A DNA stretch of 64,000 bases from an uncultured archaeon (lineage in GTDB: Archaea > Asgardarchaeota > Thorarchaeia > Thorarchaeales > Thorarchaeaceae). Under the pieces are notes generated by a model that ran no database searches, was not told the origin of the DNA, and worked only from the letters and a program-made list of their open reading frames with translations. This document shows, in pieces, positions 727-38,135 of this stretch. The DNA is taken from the NCBI GenBank assembly GCA_964458565.1, contig CAYWJO010000008.1:37995-101994 (forward strand), in the 5' to 3' direction. Position 1 is the first letter of the stretch, and each line of letters begins with the position of its first letter. The position numbers were made by a program, and so were the translations under genes.

Positions 727-2661
727 ATGGGCTTGAAAGTGAAGTACGTGGAACAACTAAAAGAAATATTTGAGGATCGTCTCATTACTGCAAAGCACGA
801 ACTTCTCCTCCAAGGGATTGACGTGGGCACACTTCCAAAACAGGTTGGATGGCTCATGAATCCAAATCCAGATGCTGTGGTACAACCGATATCCCCTGAG
901 GAAATTCAATCTCTATACAAGTTCGCCAATGAGACAAAGACCCCAATTGTACCTAGAGGGGCAGGGACATCAGGTTACGGGGGTGCGATTCCACGTAAAG
1001 GTGGAATAGTTGTTGATATTCGTCGAATGGACAAAATCCTTGAAATCGACAAAGAGAATATGACTGTAACAGTGGAGCCAGGAATCACTTGGTCTAATCT
1101 ACAGTTCGAACTAAGTCAACACGATCTTGATGTGCCATGTTATCCATCCTCCGGTCTCTCAGCAACAATCAGTGGATGGGTCGCTCAAGGTGGAGACGGT
1201 ATCGGGTCTCTTAAGTATGGAAAAGTCAATGATATAGTTGAAGAGTTGCAGGTCGTTCTTCCTGATGGTAGAATAGTCACAACGAAAGATAACGACCTCT
1301 TCTGTGACACCGAAGGAATTTTGGGAATCATCACAAAGATCACGCTTAAGATAAAACCACTCAGACCAATTCATCCTATTGTTGTCAGCTTTCCTGAGAA
1401 CTACCAACTAGTATTCGCTATTGAGCACATCTTAGAAGAAGGTCCATTACCCTACACAATGAAATTCAAGGAATCCAAATACATTGACTTGAAGAAGAGA
1501 GCTTGGGATAGCGATGAGCCCTTCCCATTCCCCGTACATCATGGTGTCTTGATGGTCGCCTATGAGGGTGATGATATAGAAGAAGGCTTTCGAGTTGTTG
1601 AAGCGGTCACAGAGAAATTTCAGGGGACCGTCTATGACCAGCATGTTGCTGACCATGAATGGGAAGAGAGATTCTACCCGATGAAGATAAAGAAACTTGG
1701 TCCTACCCTTGTTGTTGGCCAAGCATTTGCACCACTTGAAACTCTTGAGGCGCTCCTTGATGATTTCCATTGGGAACAAGCTTCAGCAGAAGCAGGTATG
1801 GATGGTTGGGTGACGACGAAAAATGGTGTGACCCTCATGGGTTATTTCCTTGAAGATGAACGTCGAAGATTATTCATGCTCTCCTGGTCTCAAAGCTTCC
1901 TCATCTGGAAGCTCGCGCAAAGGCATGGTGGTCACCCTCACAGCACAGGCATATGGTTTGCCAACTATGCACCGCAGTACTTTGGAAAACGGAGACTCGC
2001 TAGGATTCGTGCTGCGAAGACTGAACTTGACTCGAAGAACGTATCGAACCCTGGTAAGATATTCGCTTACTGGTTACCCTGGATGCTTCGAATTGGGAAG
2101 TATTTCATGTGGATTACTTTCGACATGATGCGAAATGGATTCGGTAGAAGCGCACCCCCCTATCTTCGATTGTTGCAGAATATGCCTCCAATCAAATGGA
2201 TTCTCCGATGGGGTAGGGCACACAGTCCTTGGCCGCTTCAGTATGGTCTAGGTTGTTGCATGGTAGAAGGTGCTGCCGCAGTTGCTTCAAGATGGGACTT
2301 CGAACGTTTCGGAATGCTACCACTCTTCGCACCAAGGCAGACCGATGTGTTATGGATTTCTGGATCCCTTACAAAGAAGATGGCAAAGCGTCTCAGAAGA
2401 ATCTATGAACAGATGCCTGAACCCAAGTTCGTTATTGCTTATGGCCAATGTGCTGCGAGTGGCGGCATGTTTTGGGATGGCTACAGTCTCATTTCACCAC
2501 CTGACTCAGTTGTACCTGTAGATGTTTACGTACCTGGATGTCCACCAAAACCATCCGATCTCATGCGAGCACACATTATTCTACAGAACAAGATTCGCGC
2601 TGGTACAACTCACTGGCAACAAAACTATGAGAATCAAGATGCTATGGGATTCTGGAAATAG
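727..2661 (+). CDS. Fusion of a FAD-binding oxidoreductase (GlcD/VAO fold) and a C-terminal complex I NuoB subunit
   Basis: N-terminal PRGAGTSGYGGAIP, VEPGI, ATISGWVA, TEGILGIIT and NPGKIF (ends ~2064). From ~2209: WGRAHSPWPLQYGLGCC...ERFG...PRQTD...YEQMPEPKFVIAYGQCAASGG...PVDVYVPGCPPKP, which is NuoB with the tandem CC. No stop between the two parts. Confidence 0.93.
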   Translation: MGLKVKYVEQLKEIFEDRLITAKHELLLQGIDVGTLPKQVGWLMNPNPDAVVQPISPEEIQSLYKFANETKTPIVPRGAGTSGYGGAIPRKGGIVVDIRRMDKILEIDKENMTVTVEPGITWSNLQFELSQHDLDVPCYPSSGLSATISGWVAQGGDGIGSLKYGKVNDIVEELQVVLPDGRIVTTKDNDLFCDTEGILGIITKITLKIKPLRPIHPIVVSFPENYQLVFAIEHILEEGPLPYTMKFKESKYIDLKKRAWDSDEPFPFPVHHGVLMVAYEGDDIEEGFRVVEAVTEKFQGTVYDQHVADHEWEERFYPMKIKKLGPTLVVGQAFAPLETLEALLDDFHWEQASAEAGMDGWVTTKNGVTLMGYFLEDERRRLFMLSWSQSFLIWKLAQRHGGHPHSTGIWFANYAPQYFGKRRLARIRAAKTELDSKNVSNPGKIFAYWLPWMLRIGKYFMWITFDMMRNGFGRSAPPYLRLLQNMPPIKWILRWGRAHSPWPLQYGLGCCMVEGAAAVASRWDFERFGMLPLFAPRQTDVLWISGSLTKKMAKRLRRIYEQMPEPKFVIAYGQCAASGGMFWDGYSLISPPDSVVPVDVYVPGCPPKPSDLMRAHIILQNKIRAGTTHWQQNYENQDAMGFWK

Positions 2662-26548: not shown

Positions 26549-26992
26549 ATGCGGCTCTTCATGGACTTCCTTCCAGTAATAATCTGGGCTATACTTGCAG
26601 GTGCACTCGTTGTTATAATGCTGCTCACATCGTGGTTTTTGAGACCTCATACTCTACAGAATTCCGAAAAAACCGCGTCCTATGAATGTGGTGAGGAACC
26701 CATAGGTCCCGCTAGAATCTCATATCCCTATAATTACATCGTATATACCGTTCTGTTTGTTGTAGTTGATGTATTGACGGCATTCCTATGGCTATTCGCA
26801 TCTGCGTCTTGGGATATTCGAGGTTCCGTTCTTATTGTTAGTCAAGCTATCATTTTTACTCTCATCATAATGATTGGTATCTGGTATGCTGTAAGTAGAA
26901 TTCCGGAAACCATTCTCGATGGATCCGAAACTCTTGCGTTGTATAGAGAAGCAAAAGCCAAACGGGACAAGGAGGTTGAAACGACACATTGA
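26549..26992 (+). CDS. nuoA: Complex I-like subunit A
   Basis: KTASYECGEEP, LFVVVDV; 3 TM helices. Confidence 0.9.
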   Translation: MRLFMDFLPVIIWAILAGALVVIMLLTSWFLRPHTLQNSEKTASYECGEEPIGPARISYPYNYIVYTVLFVVVDVLTAFLWLFASASWDIRGSVLIVSQAIIFTLIIMIGIWYAVSRIPETILDGSETLALYREAKAKRDKEVETTH

Positions 26993-27660
26993 TGCAACTG
27001 GATGAAGCCACACTTATCGGTATAGCTGAACCCTTAGAATTCTTAGCTGTCACAATTGCAGTGATCATCCTCGCGTATCTTGCACTTGAGCATAAGGACA
27101 TTGTATATGCGGCATTCTTCTTCGGTCTGATGGCTGCTGTTGTGTCAGGGTATTTCCTATTCCTCGAAGCCCCCTTTGTTGCCGGTATGCAGATTGCAGT
27201 GTACACCGGCGGAATTAGTGCATTAATCGTCTTTGGTGTTCTTTTGCTCCCAAGATCTCAGGATTCATCATTGGAAACTTTCCCTTCACTAGAAAAGAGC
27301 AGAATTGGTAAGTTGATTGCTGCAGCTGTGACAGCACTTTCTGCGGCTCTTGCTTTGACTTACCCTGGTGTTTGGCAGACTGCACCCTCATATGCTGGTA
27401 TTGAAAGCGAAGGAGCGAATTATTTCTTAGAGGAACTTGCAGTCTGGCTTTGGCAAGATCACGGTATCCTAATACAAATTGTTGGTTTGATTATTCTAAC
27501 AACTCTCGTGGGCACAATCGCCATAATGAGAATGGAGAAAGCTGAGCGACTAATACCTCTGAAATCTGATTTTGGAATTGAAGTCATTGACCTTGAAAAA
27601 GAGGATGATCATGAAAGTGATCAAGAAGTATCGTCTTCTTCGGAGGTAGAGGACCAATGA
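26989..27660 (+). CDS. nuoJ: Complex I-like subunit J
   Basis: LEAPFVAGMQIAVYTGGISALIVFGVLL. Confidence 0.88.
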   Translation: MMQLDEATLIGIAEPLEFLAVTIAVIILAYLALEHKDIVYAAFFFGLMAAVVSGYFLFLEAPFVAGMQIAVYTGGISALIVFGVLLLPRSQDSSLETFPSLEKSRIGKLIAAAVTALSAALALTYPGVWQTAPSYAGIESEGANYFLEELAVWLWQDHGILIQIVGLIILTTLVGTIAIMRMEKAERLIPLKSDFGIEVIDLEKEDDHESDQEVSSSSEVEDQ

Positions 27661-27986
27661 TGCCACTTTATGCATATGTTTTGGTAGCCTTTATCCTAGT
27701 TGGGATGGGCGCATACGGGATGATGGTCAAACGCAATCTCATTCGTATTCTTATCGGAGCAGAAATTATGGGTAATGGGGTTCTAATTGCACTAATCGCA
27801 TTTGCCATGTATGGCCCTACTGCTGGTGTCTATACTTTTGCAGGTCAAGGGCTAGTAGTCCTTGTCATATCCGTTTTTGCAGCCCATACAGCACTAGCTA
27901 TGGTCTTGATGCTTATGTACCATAGAAGATATGGACATGTCGATCTGGGAAAGGTGGTTATTTTGGAGGATGAGCATTTTGACTGA
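27657..27986 (+). CDS. nuoK: Complex I-like subunit K
   Basis: KRNLIRILIGAEIMGNG, GQ; 3 TM helices. Confidence 0.88.
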   Translation: MMPLYAYVLVAFILVGMGAYGMMVKRNLIRILIGAEIMGNGVLIALIAFAMYGPTAGVYTFAGQGLVVLVISVFAAHTALAMVLMLMYHRRYGHVDLGKVVILEDEHFD

Positions 27987-28536
27987 AGTACTACATGTCG
28001 CAGCAGCGACATTTGCTCGAGAGGTGATCAACAAATTTCCAGATGTTGAATCTAAGCCTCTTAATGATAATGGAGTTGAGCTCATCACTCCACGAACACA
28101 TATCAGAGATATCGTAAACATGATTGACGAACGATTTGACGACGCATTTCCAGAATTAGTCTTTGGTGTTGATTTGGAAGAGGGTAATTTCGAAGTAATC
28201 TACATATTCTGGATGAGATCCTCCAGTCTTCTTCTCCAGATACGCATTCCCTTACAAGAGAATGATCTCTGGGTAGACACTGTTTCAGATATATTCCCAG
28301 GTTTTGAGTGGCATGAGAGAGAAACCCATGAAATGTTTGGCATTGATTTCAAAGGTCACCAAGATCTTCGACTTCTTCTGTTGCCTGATGAGCTAGAGGG
28401 GCAGTATCCCCTGCGAAAGAGCTTCAAGACTGATAGAAGCCGATTGGAAGAGAGTGGATTGACTGTCCCGAAACCAAAGCCATCCCCCTCAGCGAGACCT
28501 GATGATAAACCAGCAAAGGAGGCTGATAGCGAATGA
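27970..28536 (+). CDS. nuoC: Complex I-like subunit C
   Basis: WHERETHEMFGIDFKGHQDLRLLLLP...YPLRKSF; start probably ATG 27970 or TTG 27979. Confidence 0.9.
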   Translation: MSILTEVLHVAAATFAREVINKFPDVESKPLNDNGVELITPRTHIRDIVNMIDERFDDAFPELVFGVDLEEGNFEVIYIFWMRSSSLLLQIRIPLQENDLWVDTVSDIFPGFEWHERETHEMFGIDFKGHQDLRLLLLPDELEGQYPLRKSFKTDRSRLEESGLTVPKPKPSPSARPDDKPAKEADSE

Positions 28537-29672
28537 AGCCGGATATATCTGACGAAGCTGTTGAATTGTGGTTTGGCCCGCAGCACGTAGCAGCACATGG
28601 TTGGGCTACGAAACTGACTCTCGTTGGAGACTATATAGTTGAATGTGATCCTAATGCAGGTTATTTCCATAGGTCAGCTGAGAAATGTTTGGAGTTCCGG
28701 AATTTCCGGCAGGGTGCACTTATCATGGAACGATTGTGTATGCCTGAAGCATTTCTTGCAGAATATCCGTATGTTCAAGCCGTTGAAAAAATCGCTGAGA
28801 TTGAGGTACCTGAAAAAGCGAAGTTCATGAGAACCATCATGATGGAGGTCAGTCGAATTCATAGTATCCAATTCTGGTGGGGTCAACTGGCAGGTGAACT
28901 AGGACTCTTTACAATGGTACTATGGCCATGGATTGATCGAGAGTACACATTGGATGCATTCGAAGAACTTACTGGCTCACGCCATGCCGTTACATACAGC
29001 ACTCCTGGTGGCGTCAAATACGATTTCACAGATGAATTCCTTAGAAGATTGGATTTAGCAATCTATCATTTAGAAAATCATCTTGGTAAATTCAAAGATA
29101 TGATTTTAAAAAGTCCCACTTTCAAAGCTCGTGCGCAGAATGTAGGTTTATTCTCTACCAAAGAAGCATTGAAACTTGGACTTAGTGGTCCCAATATCCG
29201 TGCATGTGATTATCCAATGGACCTACGGAAAGATGCTCATGATCCCAATCTCAAATACGACCAAGTTGACTGGGAAGTCCCTGTTTTGGTGAGTGAGGAG
29301 CATGGTTCAGGAATGTGTGATGCATATGACAGGATGATTCAGCGTTTCAATGAAGTTGATGTAGCCCTTCAGATTATCAGGGGTCTCCTGCCACAAGTTC
29401 CTGAGGGTCCTATAATCGACCCCAAAGTTAGAGCTAAGACCAATAGACTCCCCGCAGGGGAAGCGTACGGACGAGTTGAGGGTGCAAGAGGAATCTCAAC
29501 ACTTTGGCTCAAGACTACAGATAAGGCACAGACTCCATATAGAGCCAAAATCCGAGGTCCATGCTTTAATTCGTATTATGCCTTAAAACATTTAATGCCC
29601 GGACTCCGGTTCGCAGACTTTGTTCTCGTCTTTGGGAGCCTAGATCCCTATGTCGGGTGGTGGGATCGATAA
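28533..29672 (+). CDS. nuoD: Complex I-like subunit D (no NiFe ligand set)
   Basis: GPQHVAAHG, GYFHRSAEK, EVSRIHS, LSGPNIRA, EGARG, C-terminal SLDPYVGWWDR; both CxxC pairs of hydrogenases are missing. Confidence 0.88.
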   Translation: MKPDISDEAVELWFGPQHVAAHGWATKLTLVGDYIVECDPNAGYFHRSAEKCLEFRNFRQGALIMERLCMPEAFLAEYPYVQAVEKIAEIEVPEKAKFMRTIMMEVSRIHSIQFWWGQLAGELGLFTMVLWPWIDREYTLDAFEELTGSRHAVTYSTPGGVKYDFTDEFLRRLDLAIYHLENHLGKFKDMILKSPTFKARAQNVGLFSTKEALKLGLSGPNIRACDYPMDLRKDAHDPNLKYDQVDWEVPVLVSEEHGSGMCDAYDRMIQRFNEVDVALQIIRGLLPQVPEGPIIDPKVRAKTNRLPAGEAYGRVEGARGISTLWLKTTDKAQTPYRAKIRGPCFNSYYALKHLMPGLRFADFVLVFGSLDPYVGWWDR

Positions 29673-30814
29673 TGGGAGGTTTGACATTGATGCAGTTTGA
29701 AGATTTCATTAATTGGCTGAATGGGATTCCTGGCTGGCTCTATGATGTCCTCGTCTGGTGGTTTAATGCTATCTGGTGGTGGATTAATCTACTCTGGGAC
29801 TCCATTGTTATAATCTGGGCTTCAATGTTTGGAAACGCAGAGGTATTGGCCTACTGGTTCAAAGCCATAGTGTTCCCTGGACTTGTCTTTATCCTTCTGG
29901 GAATTATATTTACAGTTTGGGCGACTCGTAAAACATGGGGCCGCATTCAAGGTCGACGAGGTCCATACAATCTTGGGAAATATGGTGGTCTACAGCTCTT
30001 CGCAGATGCGATAAAGTTGATTGGAAAAGAATCTATTATTCCTAAAGGAGCCAAGCGTTGGATGTACAGGTTCCTTCCATCCTTTCTATTGGTTATTGTT
30101 CTATTACCGTTTGTATTTATTCCATGGGACACTGATTGGGTGATTGTAGACCTTTCAGTTAGCTTGGTCTTGATCTTTGCATTTCTTACTGCAATTCCTG
30201 TTATTTCGCTCCTAGCAGGATGGATTAGTGGATCCAAGTATACCATTATCGGAGGTTTCAGAGCTGCAAATAACCAGTTTGCTTCTGAGATTCCATTAGT
30301 ACTGTCAACAGTTGGTCCTGCTATGCTAGCAGGTTCACTTAGCGTCTTGAGTATAGCACAGGTTCAGGCAGATTCTTTCTGGTTCATTTTCCTGTTGCCA
30401 TTGAACTTCGTTACGTTCCTGATTAGCGCTGTTATGTCAGTTGGAATGGTACCATTCGATGCACCTGTTGCCGACTCTGAGATTCTGTTTGGATGGCGAA
30501 CGGAATTTTCAGGAATTTGGTTCGTTATGACCTATTTTGCTGAATTTGCAGAGATGCTCTTTTACTCAGCAATGATGGTAACTCTATTCTTTGGAGGTTT
30601 CTCGGGTCCTGCATTCCTCCCTGGAATTGTAATCTTTCTCATCAAGCTCATGATAGTGATGTTCTTCTTCATTATAGTGACTTCATCATTCTATAGGCTC
30701 AGACAGGATCAGATTGTTTCGTTTAGTTGGAAGTACCTTCTTCCCTTGACAATACTAAACATTCTGATAGTCATGTTTGGAATGGCCTATTTTGGATTGT
30801 ACATAGGAGGTTAG
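29672..30814 (+). CDS. nuoH: Complex I-like subunit H with Trp-rich N-terminal extension
   Basis: RKTWGRIQGRRGP, GLQLFADAIKLIGKE, SKYTIIGGFR, PFD, RLRQDQ...WKYLLP; start uncertain between 29672 and 29690. Confidence 0.92.
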   Translation: MGGLTLMQFEDFINWLNGIPGWLYDVLVWWFNAIWWWINLLWDSIVIIWASMFGNAEVLAYWFKAIVFPGLVFILLGIIFTVWATRKTWGRIQGRRGPYNLGKYGGLQLFADAIKLIGKESIIPKGAKRWMYRFLPSFLLVIVLLPFVFIPWDTDWVIVDLSVSLVLIFAFLTAIPVISLLAGWISGSKYTIIGGFRAANNQFASEIPLVLSTVGPAMLAGSLSVLSIAQVQADSFWFIFLLPLNFVTFLISAVMSVGMVPFDAPVADSEILFGWRTEFSGIWFVMTYFAEFAEMLFYSAMMVTLFFGGFSGPAFLPGIVIFLIKLMIVMFFFIIVTSSFYRLRQDQIVSFSWKYLLPLTILNILIVMFGMAYFGLYIGG

Positions 30815-30817
30815 AAA

Positions 30818-31249
30818 ATGAGTAAGTTAGGAACAATAGCAAACTCGCTCAGAATACTGCGACATGTATTCAGACGTATCTTCAAACGTCCGTTTACTTA
30901 CTTCTATCCTTGGGAGGATAGATATTATCCTGAATTGACTCGTGGAAGACATATTCATGTTAGAGAGAATTGTACCGCATGTAGTCAGTGTGTACGCGCC
31001 TGTCCAGTTGTTGCAATTCGTATTGACAAGGAGGACAAGAAGTATGAGAAGGACGCCGCCTTATACTTCGATTACTCACGCTGTCTCTTCTGTGGACTTT
31101 GTGTTCAAGCATGCAATTTCGATGCACTATTTCACACTCCTATCGTCGATCTAAGCGCTGATAGCCAAGAGAAACTCATCTATGGACCTGACAGGATAAC
31201 GAAGATCGAACGGGAACCACTCGAGTGGCGAGGGAGGAAGATCAGATAA
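30818..31249 (+). CDS. nuoI: Complex I-like subunit I (2x4Fe-4S)
   Basis: TYFYP, RGRH, CTACSQCVRACP, CLFCGLCVQAC. Confidence 0.92.
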   Translation: MSKLGTIANSLRILRHVFRRIFKRPFTYFYPWEDRYYPELTRGRHIHVRENCTACSQCVRACPVVAIRIDKEDKKYEKDAALYFDYSRCLFCGLCVQACNFDALFHTPIVDLSADSQEKLIYGPDRITKIEREPLEWRGRKIR

Positions 31250-32802
31250 TGCAACTAGGTGCCCTGCTTGATTTCCCATTTATGACTCTATCATTGGGAA
31301 TATTATTCATAGGAGCTCTCTTCATCTACCTATTCAGAAACTCGCTAAAAGAACAAGCTGGAAAGGTTGCTGTCATTTACTCATTCTTAGGAATGCTAGC
31401 AATGATTCCTCCGTTTTACGAACTAATCGTAAATGGTCATCCAGCAAGTGAAACCGCCAGATGGTCCATCGTCATTGGCGAGTGGGGCCTCTATCTAGAT
31501 GGCATCGCTTTTCCAATCACCTTTGCAATAGTAGTTCTTGGTTTCCTTTCAGTAGTGTACGCTGTCGGATATACCGAACACACAAAGAACAAACCAACAT
31601 TCTTTGCAAATCAACTGTTCTTCCTCATGGGAATGCAATGGGTGACACTTGCTACAAATCTCATCGAGTTTTTCATAGCTTGGGAATTAATGCTGGTTCC
31701 ATCTTATTTCCTAATTCTCTTCTGGGGTCTCCCAGAAACTCGTAAGCGAACAGCTCTGAAATTCTGGCTGTACACACAATCAGGTGCAGTCTGTATTCTA
31801 GTTGGTTTTGGTCTCTTGTATGCATTTACCGGAACCTTCGAATTATATGCCCTTGGTTCGGGCATTATTGATGTTCTCGCTGCAACTCCAATTGCACTTG
31901 AATTGTCAAAACTAATCTTCATACTTCTCGCAGCTGGCTTCTTAGTCAAGATGGCTGTATTTCCGATCCACTGGTGGTTACCTCCAGTCCACGCTGAAGC
32001 ACCCACTCCAATCTCAGTCTTGCTTTCTGGAGCGATGATCGAGACCGGTGCCTATGCACTTGTTCGATTTGCTCAGATTACTCTAGGTTTTGAAACTGCA
32101 ATCGACTTGAGTTTCTATATCGGGGCTATCGGTGTAATTACGATGTTCTATGGAGGTTTCATGGCTCTTGCCCAGAAGGACATCAAGCGACTCCTCGCTT
32201 ATAGCTCGGTTTCTCAGATGGGCTATGTTCTGTTTTCTTTAGGAATGTACACATCCTTTGGAATGGCCGGAGGTCTCTTTCATCTCATCAATCACGCTTT
32301 CTCGAAGGGTCTCTTGTTTATGACTGCCGGGGCGGTTATACATCAAACTGGTTTACGGGATATCGATAAAATGGGCGGCCTCTCAAACAAAATGCCAATC
32401 ACTGCATTCGCTGCGGCGATCGGAGCATTGAGTATAGCAGGGAGTCCACCTCTCTCAGGATTTGCCAGCGAGTGGATGATGTTTCTTGGAGGATTCCAGC
32501 GTGCTTTTGATAGTACTCCTATCAGCCTTCCGTTTCTCATCCTATCAATACTTGCAGTATCAAGCTCCATCCTGAGTGCAGGCTACATGCTCAGATTCCT
32601 GTGGAGAGTATTCCTTGGTCCTCATCCAAACGAACTCGAGAATGTCACAGAGACGTCACGATGGATGTTATTACCCATGGTTGCACTAGCCGTGCTTGTC
32701 GTCATCTTTGGTGTCTTCCCAGGATTGGCTTTGGATATCATTGGTGGAGCGGTGGAGCATATTTCGGAAATCATTGGTACCTTTGCAGGAGGTGGACATT
32801 AG
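31249..32802 (+). CDS. nuoM: Antiporter-like subunit, additional NuoM-type copy (M1)
   Basis: FFIAWELMLVP, KFWLYT, KMAVFPIHWWLP...AEAPTP, KRLLAYSSVSQMG, GFASEW; start ATG 31249 overlaps the nuoI stop. Confidence 0.8.
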   Translation: MQLGALLDFPFMTLSLGILFIGALFIYLFRNSLKEQAGKVAVIYSFLGMLAMIPPFYELIVNGHPASETARWSIVIGEWGLYLDGIAFPITFAIVVLGFLSVVYAVGYTEHTKNKPTFFANQLFFLMGMQWVTLATNLIEFFIAWELMLVPSYFLILFWGLPETRKRTALKFWLYTQSGAVCILVGFGLLYAFTGTFELYALGSGIIDVLAATPIALELSKLIFILLAAGFLVKMAVFPIHWWLPPVHAEAPTPISVLLSGAMIETGAYALVRFAQITLGFETAIDLSFYIGAIGVITMFYGGFMALAQKDIKRLLAYSSVSQMGYVLFSLGMYTSFGMAGGLFHLINHAFSKGLLFMTAGAVIHQTGLRDIDKMGGLSNKMPITAFAAAIGALSIAGSPPLSGFASEWMMFLGGFQRAFDSTPISLPFLILSILAVSSSILSAGYMLRFLWRVFLGPHPNELENVTETSRWMLLPMVALAVLVVIFGVFPGLALDIIGGAVEHISEIIGTFAGGGH

Positions 32803-35037
32803 ATGCTGTTTGGTCTTCCTTACTATCTAATCCTAGTACTCCCACTTGGAGGGTCTTTACTAGTCCCGCTGGTTGGGAAATTCAGTGAAAAACTGCGAGA
32901 CTGGACTCCTGCTATCTTTATGGGCTTCGCTATGATTCTCTGCTGGTCTCTTCTCTTCGATTCATTTGATCCAGCACATCCGCCAAGTTGGACGTGGATT
33001 GAAATTCTAGGATTGAACTTTGAAATTCTACTAGACTCCCTGTCAGTAATAATGGCAATCCTATCTAGTACACTCTGTTTCCTCATCTATGTATACAGTA
33101 CAGAATACATGGCCCATGAGGAAGATAAGGACCGATTCTTCTTCATGATGCTTGCCTTCGGTGGAGGAATGCTCACTCTTGTACTCAGCAATAATCTGCT
33201 CATTGCCTTTATTGGATGGGAGATTATGGGATTCTGTTCTTACGGACTTATCGGATTTTGGAACGATAAACGTAATCCACCTGAAACTGATCCGACAGAT
33301 ATAGAGACCTCAAACCCTCTTCTGAAATTTGAGACCGAGGGTGAATACAATACACATTGTGGAACAAAGGCATTCATTGTAACACGAATTGGTGATGCCT
33401 TCATGTTGGGTGGTATCCTTCTACTCTTCCTATACACGGGAACCTTCTCATTCACCGAGATGGCAGCTGATTCACAGCATTGGTGGGGTACCATGGCAAG
33501 TGTCGGAATGCTGGTTCCAACATTTCTCTTGATTTTTGCTGGTGCTATTGGAAAATCTGGACAAGCCCCATTACAGGTGTGGCTTCCAGAGGCAATGGCT
33601 GGACCTACTGCAGTTTCTGCCCTAATACATGCTGCAACCATGGTAAAAGCGGGTGTGTACATCAGTGCACGTTTTCTAGTCACTATGGTTGGAGCATCGG
33701 GAGGTGGACATGCGGAGGAAGGTATGGTCGCATTACAAGCAGCGGGTCTGGAGGTCGCATCTGTGTTCTTTACGACCGTAGCAATAGTAGGTGCGATAAC
33801 AGCCATCATGACTGCAACAATGGGCATGGTTTCAAACGAGCTTAAGCAGGTTCTTGCATTTTCAACCTTGAGTCAACTTGGATATATGATGTTGGCAATA
33901 GGTACAGGAGGTCTCCTTGAACATTATGATCACGCGTATCTTGCTGGGGTGCTGCATGTTGTTTCTCATGGTGCGTTCAAGGCGCTGCTGTTTCTTGCAG
34001 CAGGTGGAGTCATTCACGCGATTCATACGAAGTATATGACGAAGATGGGAGGTCTCAAAAAGTATATGCGGAAGACCTTCATTGTGATGTGGATTGGTGT
34101 TCTTGCATTATCAGGTATACCGCCATTCTCTGGATTCTGGTCAAAGGACTCCATCATTGAATATACATACGAGCTCGCAGCACATGGAAGTGCTCTAGGT
34201 TGGGTGCTCTTTACATTTGCAGTACTCGCAGCAGCATGTACAATATTCTATAGCATGCGGCTTATGGGAATGACATTCTATGGTCCTGGCCGAGATGATG
34301 AGCATCACGAAGATACAGATCATCATGAGGAACTTGAGCATCACGAGGAACAAGAGGACAAAGATGAGCATGAACAAAATGACCATGGTCACTCAGAGCC
34401 ACATGATCCGGGTCCTGCTATGATGATTCCTCTATACATCCTTGCCGCCTTCACCATATTAGCTTTCATCGTGTATCCAATCATACAAGAATTCGTCTTA
34501 CAAGAGGGTCATACGTGGATAGAGAACTTGACCTATATGATTACTGTCAAGTTTAGCGCTGAGGGGATTACACCCTTCGTGATTACTCTGGGAGCTCTTG
34601 CTCTTGGAGGTATACCCGGGTACATGATGTACATTAAGAACTCAGACAAGCCCAACACATTCGTACCGGAAACTGGAGCACGACGTAAAGTGTTCAACTT
34701 CCTACGTCATCGGTGGTACATCAATGAGGCTTACGGTTGGGTACTCAATAAGTTCCTTAACTTTGCATCTTGGTGGAGAGAACGTATAGACAATATTATC
34801 ATTGATGGCATCGACTTCAAGTCTCGGGATGCTGCGTTAGCAATATCCACAAAGGTTCGCTGGGTCGATGATCATCTTGTTGATGGATTTGCTGAGGCAA
34901 TTTCAACAAAGAGCGTAGGTGCATCTGAAACAAGTAAGAAGGCACAGACTGGACTAATCAACGACTATCTGGGAATGATGCTATTCGGAGTTGGAATAAT
35001 GGTCATCATTCTTCTAGTAACACTAGGGGTGATCTGA
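32803..35037 (+). CDS. nuoL: Complex I-like subunit L with extended transverse helix
   Basis: WEIMGFCSYGLIGFW, KAFIVTRIGD, GKSGQAPLQVWLPEAMAGPTAVSALIHAATMV, GFWSKD, WY...DG...DG...QTG. Confidence 0.93.
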   Translation: MLFGLPYYLILVLPLGGSLLVPLVGKFSEKLRDWTPAIFMGFAMILCWSLLFDSFDPAHPPSWTWIEILGLNFEILLDSLSVIMAILSSTLCFLIYVYSTEYMAHEEDKDRFFFMMLAFGGGMLTLVLSNNLLIAFIGWEIMGFCSYGLIGFWNDKRNPPETDPTDIETSNPLLKFETEGEYNTHCGTKAFIVTRIGDAFMLGGILLLFLYTGTFSFTEMAADSQHWWGTMASVGMLVPTFLLIFAGAIGKSGQAPLQVWLPEAMAGPTAVSALIHAATMVKAGVYISARFLVTMVGASGGGHAEEGMVALQAAGLEVASVFFTTVAIVGAITAIMTATMGMVSNELKQVLAFSTLSQLGYMMLAIGTGGLLEHYDHAYLAGVLHVVSHGAFKALLFLAAGGVIHAIHTKYMTKMGGLKKYMRKTFIVMWIGVLALSGIPPFSGFWSKDSIIEYTYELAAHGSALGWVLFTFAVLAAACTIFYSMRLMGMTFYGPGRDDEHHEDTDHHEELEHHEEQEDKDEHEQNDHGHSEPHDPGPAMMIPLYILAAFTILAFIVYPIIQEFVLQEGHTWIENLTYMITVKFSAEGITPFVITLGALALGGIPGYMMYIKNSDKPNTFVPETGARRKVFNFLRHRWYINEAYGWVLNKFLNFASWWRERIDNIIIDGIDFKSRDAALAISTKVRWVDDHLVDGFAEAISTKSVGASETSKKAQTGLINDYLGMMLFGVGIMVIILLVTLGVI

Positions 35038-36612
35038 ATGCAACTAGTAGACTTCGTTCTTAACCTCCCATTAGGAATCCTTGAGATAATGTTGCTCCTC
35101 CCCATTGCAGGAGCATTCTTGGCTTTCTTGGCCGGCAATAAGGCTTCAAGGATTGTAGCATTACTCATCACCACAATCGAACTTGCCTTATCCCTTATCC
35201 TCGCTCTGGCATATGTTCCCCCTACAACAGTATCAGATTTAGGCATCATGTTCAACTCAACTTATCCAATAGCTGACCTAAGTAGTGTCGGTGGAACAAC
35301 ACTACAGTTTGAGCTGGGTGTTGATGGAATTTCAGTTGTCATGATTATACTAGCTAATCTTGTTGTTTGGATAGCAGCGATAAGCTCGAATCACATCCAT
35401 GAATCAGAGAAGTCATATTATTTCTTCTTTCTCTTGCTTCAGACAGGACTCCTAGGAGTTTTCATGTCATTAGATTTGATTGGATTTTTCGTATTCTGGG
35501 AGCTTGTTCTAATCCCCATGTTCTTCATAATAGGGCGCTGGGGTGAGGAAGGTTGTCAGCATGCAGCAATCAAGTTCTTCATCTATACCCACTTAGGATC
35601 AGCTGTATTGATAGTGAGCTTCTTTTCACTCTACTTCTTAGCACCTGAACCTACTTTCAGTATGATTGCACTGAGAGGAATGGGACTTCCTATGATGGTG
35701 CAGTTTGGTTTTGCAATCGCTGTCTTTGTTGGTGCTGGAGTTAAACTACCAGTCTTTCCACTGCACAACTGGCTTCCATGGGCTCATGTAAAAGCACCTA
35801 CGCCAGGTTCTGTCATCCTTGCAGGAATTCTGCTTAAAATGGGTGGATATGCCTTCATTCGTCTGGGTCTCTGGATGGTTCCTGAGGCTTTCTCACGATT
35901 AGCACCAATATTTGCAATTGTTGCAATATTCACATGTATCTACGCGGCATTTACTGCGATGGCTCAAACTGATATGAAGAGCCTTGTCGCTTACACTTCC
36001 ATCAACCATATGTCGTGGGTGCTACTAGCAGTAGCAGTTGCTTCCATTGGAATCTATCCACCAGCTGGACTTGATATTGCTACAACAGAACTGCTGAAGG
36101 CAGCTGCAAATCTTGCAATTCAAGGTGCAGTGTTCATGATGTTCTCACATGGGACAATAATCTCAGTGATGTTCATTATGGCGGGTCAACTCAAATATGC
36201 GGCAGGAACCAGAGAGATTCCTGCTATTCAAGGCCTGATGGAGAAAGCTCCGCGTATGGCTGCAATTCTAATACTTGCTGCTTTTGCGGCTTTCGGTCTT
36301 CCTGGATTTAGTGGTTTCATCGCAGAGGCTTTGATACTCTTTGGCTCTGTTTCAATCTACATATGGGCTGCAGTAATTGGATTTGGTATCTTCATCACGG
36401 TTGGATATATCCTTTGGATGCTAAATAGGATCGTCTTCAGCGATCCCGATCCTGAAAAGGAAGTGACTGAGGCTCCATGGTCTGATCTGATTGCCCCAAT
36501 TCTGATGATGATCCCAGTTATTCTTCTGGGTCTCTGGCCCGATTTAATATTGTATCTAATTGATCCGATATCAAGATTGATGCTCGGTCTTCCACTTGGA
36601 GGTGTTCCATAA
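35038..36612 (+). CDS. nuoM: Complex I-like subunit M (M2)
   Basis: FFVFWELVLIPMFFIIGRWG, KFFIYT, KLPVFPLHNWLPWAHVKAPTPGSVILAGILLKMGGY, GFIAE. Confidence 0.92.
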   Translation: MQLVDFVLNLPLGILEIMLLLPIAGAFLAFLAGNKASRIVALLITTIELALSLILALAYVPPTTVSDLGIMFNSTYPIADLSSVGGTTLQFELGVDGISVVMIILANLVVWIAAISSNHIHESEKSYYFFFLLLQTGLLGVFMSLDLIGFFVFWELVLIPMFFIIGRWGEEGCQHAAIKFFIYTHLGSAVLIVSFFSLYFLAPEPTFSMIALRGMGLPMMVQFGFAIAVFVGAGVKLPVFPLHNWLPWAHVKAPTPGSVILAGILLKMGGYAFIRLGLWMVPEAFSRLAPIFAIVAIFTCIYAAFTAMAQTDMKSLVAYTSINHMSWVLLAVAVASIGIYPPAGLDIATTELLKAAANLAIQGAVFMMFSHGTIISVMFIMAGQLKYAAGTREIPAIQGLMEKAPRMAAILILAAFAAFGLPGFSGFIAEALILFGSVSIYIWAAVIGFGIFITVGYILWMLNRIVFSDPDPEKEVTEAPWSDLIAPILMMIPVILLGLWPDLILYLIDPISRLMLGLPLGGVP

Positions 36613-38135
36613 TGCAACCATTGACAGACTTAGTGAACCTCATAAGAGCACTGTTTAAACCATTCACAGATGTATTATTACAAGTCATGACTGACCTCAA
36701 TCTCGAGAGTTGGATAGGATCTCTTCCAGTCTTGACCCTAATCATCTTCGCACTATTGTCATTAGTAGCAAAGAAAGGGCGAATCCCAATTGTAATGAGC
36801 TTCATAGGTGTAATCCTTGCCACTATTCAAATGATAATGATTGAACCTATGGATTCATTCGGTGGCCTTTTCACGAGAGATGCATTTGCTGACTTCTTCA
36901 TCTACCTGATACTCATTGTAGCATTTCTTGTACTTCTATCAGCAACCACATTTGGAGGGGACAAGGGGACATATACCTTCATGTTGATGATGTCCTTTGC
37001 TGGAGCTATTTGGGTAGTTATGGCTACAGATCTGATTGCTTTGTTTCTCGCGTGGGAGCTGATGTCAACTCCAACCTATATCTTAACTGCGTTGGGTCCA
37101 CATCGAGGAGCTGTTGATGGTGCAACGAAGTACTTCATCATGGGTATGATGGCAACCGTATTCATGTTGTTTGGCATCGCTCTTGTTTATGGGGTCACAG
37201 GAGAGACCACGTTAAGCAAACTTGCAGAAGTGGTTAACACGATTTGGATATCAGGGTCTATCATGGATAATGCGGCATGGACACTAATCCTAGCAATGGT
37301 ACTATTTGTGATAGCCTTTGGTTTCAAAATAGGTATCTTCCCCGGATGGATGTGGGTCGCTGATACTTACGGGACTGCCGACGGGAGTGTTGTTGCATAT
37401 CTAGCTGGTGGTGCAAAGAAGACTGGTGTGAGTGCTGTCATGCGAATAATGATAGTAGGCTTCTTCATAGCACGATTCGAATGGATGCCTTTACTAATCA
37501 CGGTATCAATACTCACGATGGTCATAGGTAATGTTCTTGCTTTGCAATTCAATGAAGGTAAGTTCCCCATCAACAGAATGCTGGCGTATTCCAGTATTAC
37601 CATGATGGGATATCTCTTTGTTGGACTTGCTGCTGCTTCTGAGCTTGGAGCTGCTGCCGCGATGTTTCATGCATTCGCACATGCTTTGATGAAATCAGGG
37701 GCATTTATTCTAATTTGGGCGATGGCAATAACACTTGGTAAAGAGATTGATTACAATGATCTGAAGGGTCTTGGTAAGAGGGCTCCGACTTTGTCAGCCT
37801 TCTTAGCGATTCTAATATTCGCTCTTGCTGGTTTCCCATTGACGGTAGGCTTTTGGTCAAAGTGGATTCTTCTTCCGCAAGCTGCAGTTGAGGTTGGTCT
37901 CTGGTGGTTGGCGTTAATACTTCTATTGAATTCAGTCTTCTCTCTGGGATACTATCTTAGAGTATTGAAGTTCTGTTATTTCATGGAGCCAGAAGATGAC
38001 ACTCCGATAGTAATTCCAAAGCTACCAATGATTGCGGTAGGCATAACTGTGGTTGCAGTTTTAGTGCTATTTGCGTTCCCAGGTCTTGTTCTAGACTATG
38101 CGCTAGCGGCTGCAAACCTTCTATTCACCCCATGA
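36612..38135 (+). CDS. nuoN: Complex I-like subunit N
   Basis: WELMS, KYFIMG, GFKIGIFP..MWVADTY, RMLAYSSI, GFWSK, YYLRV. Confidence 0.92.
   Translation: MQPLTDLVNLIRALFKPFTDVLLQVMTDLNLESWIGSLPVLTLIIFALLSLVAKKGRIPIVMSFIGVILATIQMIMIEPMDSFGGLFTRDAFADFFIYLILIVAFLVLLSATTFGGDKGTYTFMLMMSFAGAIWVVMATDLIALFLAWELMSTPTYILTALGPHRGAVDGATKYFIMGMMATVFMLFGIALVYGVTGETTLSKLAEVVNTIWISGSIMDNAAWTLILAMVLFVIAFGFKIGIFPGWMWVADTYGTADGSVVAYLAGGAKKTGVSAVMRIMIVGFFIARFEWMPLLITVSILTMVIGNVLALQFNEGKFPINRMLAYSSITMMGYLFVGLAAASELGAAAAMFHAFAHALMKSGAFILIWAMAITLGKEIDYNDLKGLGKRAPTLSAFLAILIFALAGFPLTVGFWSKWILLPQAAVEVGLWWLALILLLNSVFSLGYYLRVLKFCYFMEPEDDTPIVIPKLPMIAVGITVVAVLVLFAFPGLVLDYALAAANLLFTP

What the first reader, a model, noticed from the sequence alone, without database searches (positions are those of the whole stretch)
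34714..34953. NuoL transverse helix lengthened by a 26-residue internal duplication
Seen: WY to QTG spans 80 aa. The DxxxxDG motif occurs twice (IDNIIIDG at 34786 and VDDHLVDG at 34864), exactly 78 nt (26 aa) apart, and AISTK is also repeated. Known, from my recollection: ordinary NuoL has one such motif and roughly 55 aa in this interval, and 2M complexes carry an insertion of about this size to span one more subunit. Inference: independent structural evidence that the second NuoM is really built into the membrane arm, possibly as a convergent origin of the 2M design.
Basis: partly seen in the sequence, partly recalled or inferred. Interest (0 to 1): 0.82.

Follow-up and report, generated by a model that had tools for sequence, protein, structure and literature searches.

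The report
Lengthened NuoL strap helix, four-pump complex I
In this Thorarchaeota-type archaeon, the long side helix that straps the proton pumps of respiratory complex I together is one 26-residue module longer than usual and its operon encodes a fourth pump subunit, which is the already described "2M" design and not a new kind of machine.

Summary
In NuoL (32803-35037), W638-Y639 to Q715-T716-G717 spans 80 aa. IDNIIIDG (34786) and VDDHLVDG (34864) lie exactly 26 aa apart. AISTK also occurs twice, but 19 aa apart, so it is out of register.

Compared with E. coli NuoL and 54 single-motif relatives, the lateral helix HL carries a net +26 aa. This is the insertion size reported for "2M" complex I (Chadwick 2018, read only through PMC9040806 and PMC6606698).

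The second copy looks canonical. The first is strongly diverged (4/26 identical). The window sequence alone does not prove a duplication. Family profiles do support it: in-register hhalign E 1.3e-5, and 92 of 96 Thorarchaeota homologs keep both motifs 26 apart.

The lengthened NuoL defines an Asgard clade. Every locus examined there has four adjacent pump genes in the order X-L-M-N. X is M-type but is not a copy of the neighbouring nuoM.

Outside this clade, the same or longer helices occur with only three pump genes. Helix length alone is therefore weak proof that the fourth pump is built in.

This scan has noted 26-aa HL modules in at least 21 other genomes.

Verdict: a real, ordinary new member of a known kind.

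The parts
32803..35037 (+). nuoL (P0001, 744 aa), the distal antiporter-like subunit that carries lateral helix HL
   Evidence: TIGR01974 NDH_I_L scores 466 bits against a cut-off of 407.5. PF00662 and PF00361 also match. The best solved relatives are NdhF and NuoL chains.
34678..34935 (+). Lateral helix HL, residues 626-711 (short helix 626-635 followed by one 74-residue helix 638-711)
   Evidence: AlphaFold2 model m6a67a636d769. pLDDT is only 40-50 over residues 666-720, as expected for a strap helix folded without its partner subunits.
34714..34719 (+). W638-Y639, the conserved anchor at the start of the measured interval
   Evidence: R637 and W638 are invariant and Y639 nearly invariant in alignment A1.
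34762..34839 (+). HL unit 1 (residues 654-679), the extra, diverged 26-aa module; its motif IDNIIIDG lies at 34786-34809
   Evidence: This segment falls in the alignment gap of canonical NuoLs. The canonical-unit HMM hits residues 662-670 at 1.9 bits, E 0.011. G669 is conserved in at least 90% of A1 rows.
34840..34917 (+). HL unit 2 (residues 680-705), the canonical-type module; its motif VDDHLVDG lies at 34864-34887
   Evidence: The canonical-unit HMM hits residues 686-701 at 15.8 bits, E 4e-7. It aligns to M. smegmatis NuoL VDDKAVDG...QTG. D689 is invariant and aligns with E. coli D563.
34945..34953 (+). Q715-T716-G717, the end of HL just before TM16
   Evidence: G717 is invariant and Q715 and T716 are nearly invariant.
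34954..35022 (+). TM16 (residues 718-740), the membrane anchor at the far end of the strap
   Evidence: Helix 718-740 in the model.
31225..32802 (+). Extra antiporter-like subunit X (P0002, 525 aa), M-type but not a nuoM duplicate; its stop abuts the nuoL start codon
   Evidence: TIGR01972 scores 309.5 bits against a cut-off of 263.8. X has TM5 E154, TM7 K242, TM8 E273 and TM12 E416. It is 31% identical to NuoM. In the subunit tree it lies outside the NuoM clade. It sits directly upstream of the long nuoL in every Thorarchaeota contig that reaches that far.
35038..36612 (+). nuoM (P0003), a bona fide NuoM
   Evidence: TIGR01972 scores 418.7 bits. It falls in the 100*-supported NuoM clade with E. 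coli NuoM.
36612..38135 (+). nuoN (P0004)
   Evidence: TIGR01770 scores 265.7 bits, below its cut-off of 332.6. It falls in the N clade of the subunit tree.
26549..31249 (+). Upstream part of the same operon: nuoA, J, K, C, D, H, I. There is no nuoB and no nuoEFG here.
   Evidence: Pfam and NCBIfam matches. ORF coordinates.

Best explanation
The flagged stretch encodes lateral helix HL of NuoL. HL is the amphipathic strap that leaves the distal pump subunit, runs along the neighbouring pump subunits and ends in the anchor helix TM16.

In ordinary NuoL the span from the W-Y anchor to QTG is about two 26-residue units, and one of them carries a D-x-x-h-h-D-G module. Here there are three units. 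An extra module (residues 654-679) sits just before the canonical one (680-705). It is most likely an ancient tandem copy of the canonical module that has since diverged down to the motif.

Twenty-six helical residues add about 39 A, which is half of the canonical two-unit span that covers NuoM and NuoN. The operon encodes a fourth antiporter-like subunit, X, directly upstream of nuoL. The extra module therefore most likely lets the strap cross one more pump, so that TM16 still reaches the proximal end of a four-pump membrane arm. This is the design proposed for 2M complex I.

Shown here:
- the +26 aa insertion;
- the doubled module;
- its conservation across a whole Asgard clade;
- strict linkage with X within that clade.

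Inferred, not shown:
- that the insertion arose by duplication;
- that X lies under the strap;
- that the enzyme moves one more ion per cycle.
For: Insertion. A MAFFT alignment of Asgard L-type C-termini with E. coli NuoL shows a 26-27 aa gap in canonical sequences exactly between the two motifs. Among 144 nearest 50%-cluster representatives, the anchor-to-Q distance falls into four classes: about 25 aa (7 proteins), 46-55 (54), 74-84 (73) and 100-107 (8).

Repeated module.
- An HMM built only from 40 single-motif relatives hits P0001 twice: residues 662-670 (E 0.011) and 686-701 (E 4e-7).
- hhalign of the clade's unit 1 against unit 2 gives an in-register match: Prob 80.5, E 1.3e-5, score 20.3. 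Control pairs of other 26-aa HL segments score 0.4-4.0.
- Solved NdhF aligns to copy 1 and solved NuoL to copy 2.
- Relatives still hold near-identical repeats. P0130 has 21/26 identical, and L037 reads WFDNVIVDGVYRGLAWL / WFDNTVVDGVYRGLAWL.

Linkage with the fourth pump. All six lineages examined in the window's all-long clade have X-L-M-N: the window, L050, L032, L036, L052 and L053. X lies adjacent upstream in every Thorarchaeota contig that extends far enough. Nine of nine Asgard clusters with a canonical-length helix have three pump genes. A one-unit helix (P0122) goes with L plus one pump.

Operon structure. The genes abut or overlap: I/X overlap, X stop at 32802 and L start at 32803, L/M abut, and M/N overlap by 1 nt.

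Model. AlphaFold2 gives one 74-residue helix, 638-711, between TM15 and TM16.

Docking. Complex prediction on L residues 1-500 with X residues 18-515 gave weak support: ipSAE 0.58 against a best control of 0.00. That mark was reached by 58 of 80 solved complexes and 2 of 110 mismatched pairs, but a score of 0.60 or under was seen in only 7 of those 80 and in both mismatches that passed. The runs agree in at least 95% of contacts and partner pLDDT is at least 79. Because neighbouring antiporter-like subunits have been solved, this pass may be from memory.

Literature. A 26-aa HL insertion in NuoL of 2M complex I is postulated to bridge four pumps (PMC9040806, PMC6606698, both citing Chadwick 2018).
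Against: Helix length does not track pump number across the wider family.
- P0197 and P0129 have +26 helices but three pump genes in their clusters.
- G053 and G056 have a +26 helix with only L, M and N. G053's two other pump genes belong to a separate two-pump cluster.
- P0271 and P0266 have +52 helices but only L-M-N.
- Manganitrophaceae show the same mismatch (PMC9040806).

Only two phylogenetically independent contrasts were available, so the co-occurrence has no statistical weight.

In the window sequence itself the two units share 4/26 residues and the self-similarity is not above shuffles. There is no DNA repeat at 78 nt.

The HL model has low confidence, pLDDT 40-50.

No experiment or whole-arm model places X under the strap.
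Confidence: 0.62

Rival explanations
1. Surplus strap. The extra 26-aa module is an inherited feature of this NuoL lineage and has nothing to do with X. It covers lipid, small subunits or nothing, as it seems to in the many lineages with long helices and three pumps. X joined the operon independently.
For: Long helices occur without an extra pump gene in P0197, P0129, G053/G056, P0271 and P0266. PMC9040806 notes insertions in NuoL of three-pump clusters. Earlier notes of this scan report the same mismatch in many genomes.
Against: Within the window's clade the long helix and X never separate. Asgard clusters with a canonical helix always have three pumps, and a one-unit helix has two. The added length equals the per-pump spacing of the canonical strap.
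Confidence: 0.22
2. No duplication. A 26-aa stretch was inserted or grew by other means, and it acquired a D..hhDG motif by convergence because every pump subunit offers the same docking surface.
For: The two units are only 4/26 identical in the window. Self-similarity is not above shuffles, and the first copy scores only 1.9 bits against the canonical unit. There is no nucleotide repeat at 78 nt.
Against: The profile match is in register, with E 1.3e-5 and clean controls. The period is exactly 26 in 92 of 96 homologs. Other lineages show a graded series from 21/26 down to 4/26 identity between the two units, and some have three units. That is what repeated tandem duplication followed by decay would leave.
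Confidence: 0.2
3. X is not between NuoL and the strap's anchor. It docks on the distal face of NuoL, extending the arm outward, or it forms a separate L-X module, so the strap does not need to cross it.
For: Gene order is X-L-M-N. In family f28 an L-X pair stands apart from all other complex I genes. X is related to the subunit that neighbours L in Asgard three-pump complexes.
Against: A distal X would leave the +26 helix unexplained in a clade where the two are strictly linked. In three-pump Asgard clusters the X-like subunit follows L, and the canonical two-unit strap must pass it.
Confidence: 0.15

Closest known systems
2M complex I (Chadwick et al. 2018, ISME J 12:2668). I could read it only through citing papers: PMC6606698, PMC9040806, PMC7117926, PMC7300363.
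   Same: Four antiporter-like subunits in one complex I cassette. NuoL is lengthened by a 26-aa insertion in helix HL. No nuoEFG in the cassette. The design is proposed to move a fifth ion.
   Different: The extra subunit here lies upstream of nuoL (X-L-M-N), not between L and N as in the Chloroflexi L-M1-M2-N order (PMC7117926) or the L-M-M-N locus L058. It is not a duplicate of the resident nuoM. In L058 the two M genes are sister duplicates. The host is a Thorarchaeota-type Asgard archaeon. nuoB is missing from the operon. I could not check whether Chadwick's clades already include Asgard sequences.
Canonical NuoL/Nqo12/ND5 (E. coli NuoL, 3rko_L; M. smegmatis 8e9g_L; T. elongatus NdhF 6hum_F)
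   Same: The same fold and family: 14-TM core, TM15, helix HL, TM16, one D..hhDG module followed by QTG. E. coli D563 aligns with D689.
   Different: Canonical proteins have a single module and 46-55 aa from anchor to Q. The window has two modules and 77 aa.
Complex_I_1/2/3 of Ca. Manganitrophaceae (PMC9040806)
   Same: A 26-aa insertion in helix HL, read as room for additional pumps. That paper also notes that such insertions occur in clusters without an extra pump.
   Different: There the five-pump complex carries the insertion in an MrpD-like subunit. The host is bacterial and the subunit make-up differs.
Asgard three-pump complex-I-like / Mbh-like clusters (loci L041-L048, L051)
   Same: The same phylum. 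An L-type subunit with a full HL is followed by an X-like subunit. X is most closely related to these L-adjacent subunits.
   Different: These have a canonical-length helix with one module and only three pump genes.

Membership tests
NuoL / NDH-1 subunit L (TIGR01974) | Score above the curated cut-off, with Proton_antipo_N and Proton_antipo_M domains | tested here: met
   TIGR01974 scores 466.1 bits against a cut-off of 407.5. PF00662 and PF00361 match. The equivalog NF005141 scores 494.9, below its cut-off of 556.
NuoL / NDH-1 subunit L (TIGR01974) | C-terminal extension made of TM15, a long amphipathic helix HL and TM16 | tested here: met
   The model shows helices 586-612, 626-635, 638-711 and 718-740. 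The C-terminus aligns with E. coli NuoL.
2M complex I | Four antiporter-like genes in one complex I cassette | tested here: met
   X, L, M and N lie at 31225-38135. They are the only PF00361 genes in the genome.
2M complex I | An insertion of about 26 aa in helix HL of NuoL | tested here: met
   +26 aa relative to E. coli and to 54 single-motif relatives.
2M complex I | The extra subunit is a second NuoM | tested here: inconclusive
   X is M-type by TIGR01972 (309.5 bits, cut-off 263.8) and by its TM12 Glu. However, it lies outside the NuoM clade, is only 31% identical to NuoM, and scores as well against MrpA and MbhH-type chains.
2M complex I | All four pumps are assembled under one strap, and one more ion is moved per cycle | not testable with these tools
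   There is only a weak pairwise docking score for L with X: 0.58 against a best control of 0.00. A whole-arm model exceeds the size limit.
Internal tandem duplication | Two adjacent copies in register with similarity above chance | tested here: met
   At profile level the match is in register with E 1.3e-5, and controls score 0.4-4.0. The period is exactly 26 in 92 of 96 homologs. For the window sequence alone the test is not met (839 of 2000 shuffles).
Internal tandem duplication | Nucleotide-level repeat, as expected for a recent event | tested here: not met
   No direct repeat at 78-nt spacing. The only repeat is the 15-nt AISTK repeat at 57 nt. If there was a duplication, it is old.

The most novel reading that the evidence does not exclude
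The Asgard X-L-M-N enzymes are an independent origin of the four-pump complex I design. On this reading the extra pump was recruited from the Mrp/Mbh-type subunit that neighbours L in older Asgard complexes, not made by duplicating nuoM. The strap then grew by tandem duplication of its own 26-residue docking module. HL would be a modular ruler whose unit number (one to four seen here) is reset repeatedly in evolution.
Probability: 0.35. Interest if true: 0.5.

Novelty: new member of a known kind. Interest (0 to 1): 0.3.

Why it matters
This gives a clean, lineage-wide archaeal example of the four-pump complex I design. The lengthened strap and the extra pump gene are strictly linked across Thorarchaeota and related Asgard lineages.

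That is useful for two reasons. It bears on the energy budget of these organisms, since one more ion per cycle would help with low-energy or reverse electron flow. It also gives a matched positive case to set against the many lineages where the strap is long but no extra pump is encoded.

It does not change what is known about complex I. It does caution against using helix length alone to infer pump number.

Tried and rejected
- Chadwick et al. 2018 could not be read by DOI or PMC id. What it says is taken from citing papers only. I could not check whether its clades already include Asgard sequences or whether it noted a duplication origin.
- A PDB sequence search with the isolated HL region (residues 615-744) gave no significant hits.
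- The self-similarity test on the window sequence alone was not significant.
- The independent-contrast test of helix length against pump number found only 2 usable pairs and has no power.
- AISTK as part of the duplication was rejected. The two copies are 19 aa apart, and the family signal at that offset is weak, with a mean score of 5.3.
- The idea that the number of HL units always equals the number of pumps crossed was rejected as a general rule. +52 helices occur with L-M-N only, and +26 helices occur with three pumps.
- The first attempt to build an antiporter HMM timed out and was repeated with a faster alignment.
- Literature searches for Thorarchaeota together with NuoL/NuoM or 2M found no paper describing this complex in Thorarchaeota. 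Absence from the held library is not proof of absence.
- A whole-arm complex prediction was not possible, because X plus full-length L alone exceed 1000 residues.

Full report
**What is there**

The flagged interval lies in a 744-aa ORF at 32803-35037 (+). It is a NuoL: TIGR01974 scores 466 bits against a cut-off of 407.5, and PF00662 and PF00361 match.

It sits in a tightly packed operon: nuoA-J-K-C-D-H-I (26549-31249), an extra antiporter-like gene X (31225-32802), nuoL, nuoM (35038-36612) and nuoN (36612-38135). The genes abut or overlap.

These four are the only PF00361 genes in the 3.7-Mb assembly, which is 93% complete. The closest homologs are named Candidatus Thorarchaeota.

**Checking the observation**

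- W638-Y639 starts at 34714.
- QTG ends at 34953, so the span is 80 aa.
- IDNIIIDG starts at 34786 and VDDHLVDG at 34864, which is 26 aa apart.

AISTK also occurs twice, but 19 aa apart, so it is out of register. It is the only DNA-level repeat in the region.

Taken alone, the window sequence does not prove a repeat. The two 26-aa units share 4 residues, and 839 of 2000 shuffles reach the same self-score.

Comparison with relatives settles it:
- 92 of 96 Thorarchaeota homologs keep both motifs exactly 26 apart.
- The family-averaged self-score peaks at offset 26.
- A profile comparison of unit 1 (654-679) with unit 2 (680-705) across the clade aligns them in register at E 1.3e-5. Control segment pairs score near zero.
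- An HMM built only from single-motif relatives hits the protein twice, strongly at 686-701 and weakly at 662-670.
- Solved NdhF aligns to the first copy and solved mycobacterial NuoL to the second.

**Net insertion**

Aligned with E. coli NuoL and with Asgard L-type subunits of ordinary length, the window protein has a 26-27 aa insertion between the two motifs.

Among 144 nearest cluster representatives, the anchor-to-Q distance falls into four classes: about 25, 46-55, 74-84 and 100-107 aa. These carry zero, one, two and three motifs respectively. The helix therefore behaves as a string of 26-residue units.

The AlphaFold2 model gives a single 74-residue helix, 638-711, between TM15 and TM16. 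Confidence is low there, as expected for a strap folded without its partners. Twenty-six helical residues add about 39 A, which is half of the canonical two-unit span.

**Co-occurrence with the fourth pump**

On a tree of the NuoL core with the helix region removed, the window protein sits in a ten-row clade in which every member has the long helix. Its inner six-row clade has 99* support.

Every locus examined in that clade has four adjacent pump genes in the order X-L-M-N:
- the window;
- G323 (L050), another Thorarchaeota genome;
- G397 (L032), whose cluster carries a Heimdallarchaeota name;
- G311 (L036);
- P0109 (L052);
- P0110 (L053).

In the Thorarchaeota family, X lies directly upstream of the long nuoL in every contig that reaches that far. 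Nine of nine Asgard clusters with a canonical helix have three pump genes. A one-unit helix (P0122) goes with L plus one pump.

The rule fails outside this clade:
- P0197 and P0129 have +26 helices with three pump genes in their clusters.
- G053 and G056 have +26 helices with only L, M and N.
- P0271 and P0266 have +52 helices with only L-M-N.

Yu et al. report the same mismatch in Manganitrophaceae (PMC9040806). This scan has noted it in many other genomes. Only two independent contrasts were available, so the link cannot be tested statistically here.

**Nature of the extra subunit**

X passes the NuoM subfamily model and shares the M-type TM12 Glu (E416). It has the TM5 Glu and the TM7 Lys, but carries Glu in place of the TM8 Lys.

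It is only 31% identical to the neighbouring NuoM. It scores at least as well against MrpA and MbhH-type chains.

In a tree of pump subunits, the window's M falls in a 100*-supported clade with E. coli NuoM. X falls outside it, among the subunits that neighbour L in other Asgard complexes. A classical L-M-M-N locus (L058) behaves differently: its two M genes are sister duplicates. The fourth pump here therefore looks recruited, not duplicated in place.

A docking prediction of the L core with X gave weak support only. The score was 0.58 against a best control of 0.00. That mark was reached by 58 of 80 solved complexes and 2 of 110 mismatched pairs, but a score this low was seen in only 7 of the 80 and in both false passes. 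The runs agree in at least 95% of contacts and partner pLDDT is at least 79. Because neighbouring pump subunits have been solved, the pass may come from memory.

**Origin**

Helix length changed many times:
- at least 13 changes are forced by well-supported branches among 155 rows;
- at least 6 are forced among 53 rows;
- an AU test rejects a single clade of all long-helix proteins (delta lnL 590, p 0.0003).

Identity between the two units ranges from 21/26 down to 4/26 across lineages, and the window is at the bottom of that range. This graded series, together with three-unit forms, fits repeated tandem duplication followed by decay. In this clade the event predates the split of Thorarchaeota from the G397 and G311 lineages.

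**Comparison with what is known**

A lengthened NuoL plus a second NuoM defines 2M complex I (PMC6606698). The insertion there is 26 aa and is thought to let the strap bridge four pumps (PMC9040806). Four pump subunits per complex are accepted in the structural literature (PMC7419157). Insertions of six to seven residues in the E. coli helix between L and M impair pumping (PMC3274701), so helix length does matter.

The window is therefore a new lineage member of a known design. Its particular features are the gene order, the origin of the extra pump and the absence of nuoB from the operon.

**Verdict**

The design is known and the interest is modest.

Noticed in passing
window 727-2661 (+): A 644-aa ORF fuses a GlcD/VAO-type FAD dehydrogenase (PF01565 and PF02913) to a NuoB domain (PF01058). 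The nuo operon 24 kb downstream has no nuoB, so this fusion may be the electron-input module of the complex.
   Followed up: partly
representatives P0236/P0266 (locus L055), P0226/P0271 (locus L054), P0181, P0235, P0137, P0143, P0190, P0142: These NuoL proteins carry three D..hhDG modules 26 aa apart (anchor-to-Q 102-105 aa). The two loci examined encode only L, M and N. What lies under the extra 78 A of helix is unknown.
   Followed up: partly
window 34291-34413 (NuoL residues 497-537): A loop of about 40 aa rich in His, Asp and Glu lies between TM14 and TM15 of NuoL (HHEDTDHHEELEHHEEQEDKDEHEQNDHGH). It looks disordered in the model (pLDDT below 50), and is His-rich but variable across the clade.
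   Followed up: no
window 33262-33360 (NuoL residues 154-186): An insertion of about 30 aa, relative to solved NuoL/NdhF chains, lies between the TM5 region and the next helix. It is conserved in Thorarchaeota (NDKRNPPE...NTHCGTKA) and has low model confidence.
   Followed up: no
window 32041-32043 (X residue E273): The extra pump subunit has Glu where NuoM and NuoN carry the conserved TM8 Lys. Its TM5 Glu, TM7 Lys and M-type TM12 Glu are present.
   Followed up: partly
locus L058 (contig of P0120): This classical L-M-M-N cluster also lacks nuoB and nuoI and lies next to two FAD_binding_4 / FAD-oxidase_C genes. That echoes the FAD-dehydrogenase-NuoB link seen in the window.
   Followed up: no
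loci L033, L034, L038 (G298-G300) and L061: In one Asgard family a long-helix L and an X-like gene form an isolated pair, away from other complex I genes. Two further pump genes sit on another contig with K and a fused C-D, H and I.
   Followed up: partly
locus L049 (G373:C12); also G357:C54: A second, divergent cluster in some Thorarchaeota genomes (D-H-I-K-L-X'-N') has an L subunit with a helix about 26 aa longer but no D..hhDG motif, and only three pump genes.
   Followed up: no
window 34840-34854 and 34897-34911: A 15-nt direct repeat (13/15 identical) encodes AISTK twice, 19 aa apart. It is not conserved as a repeat in the family and is probably chance.
   Followed up: yes
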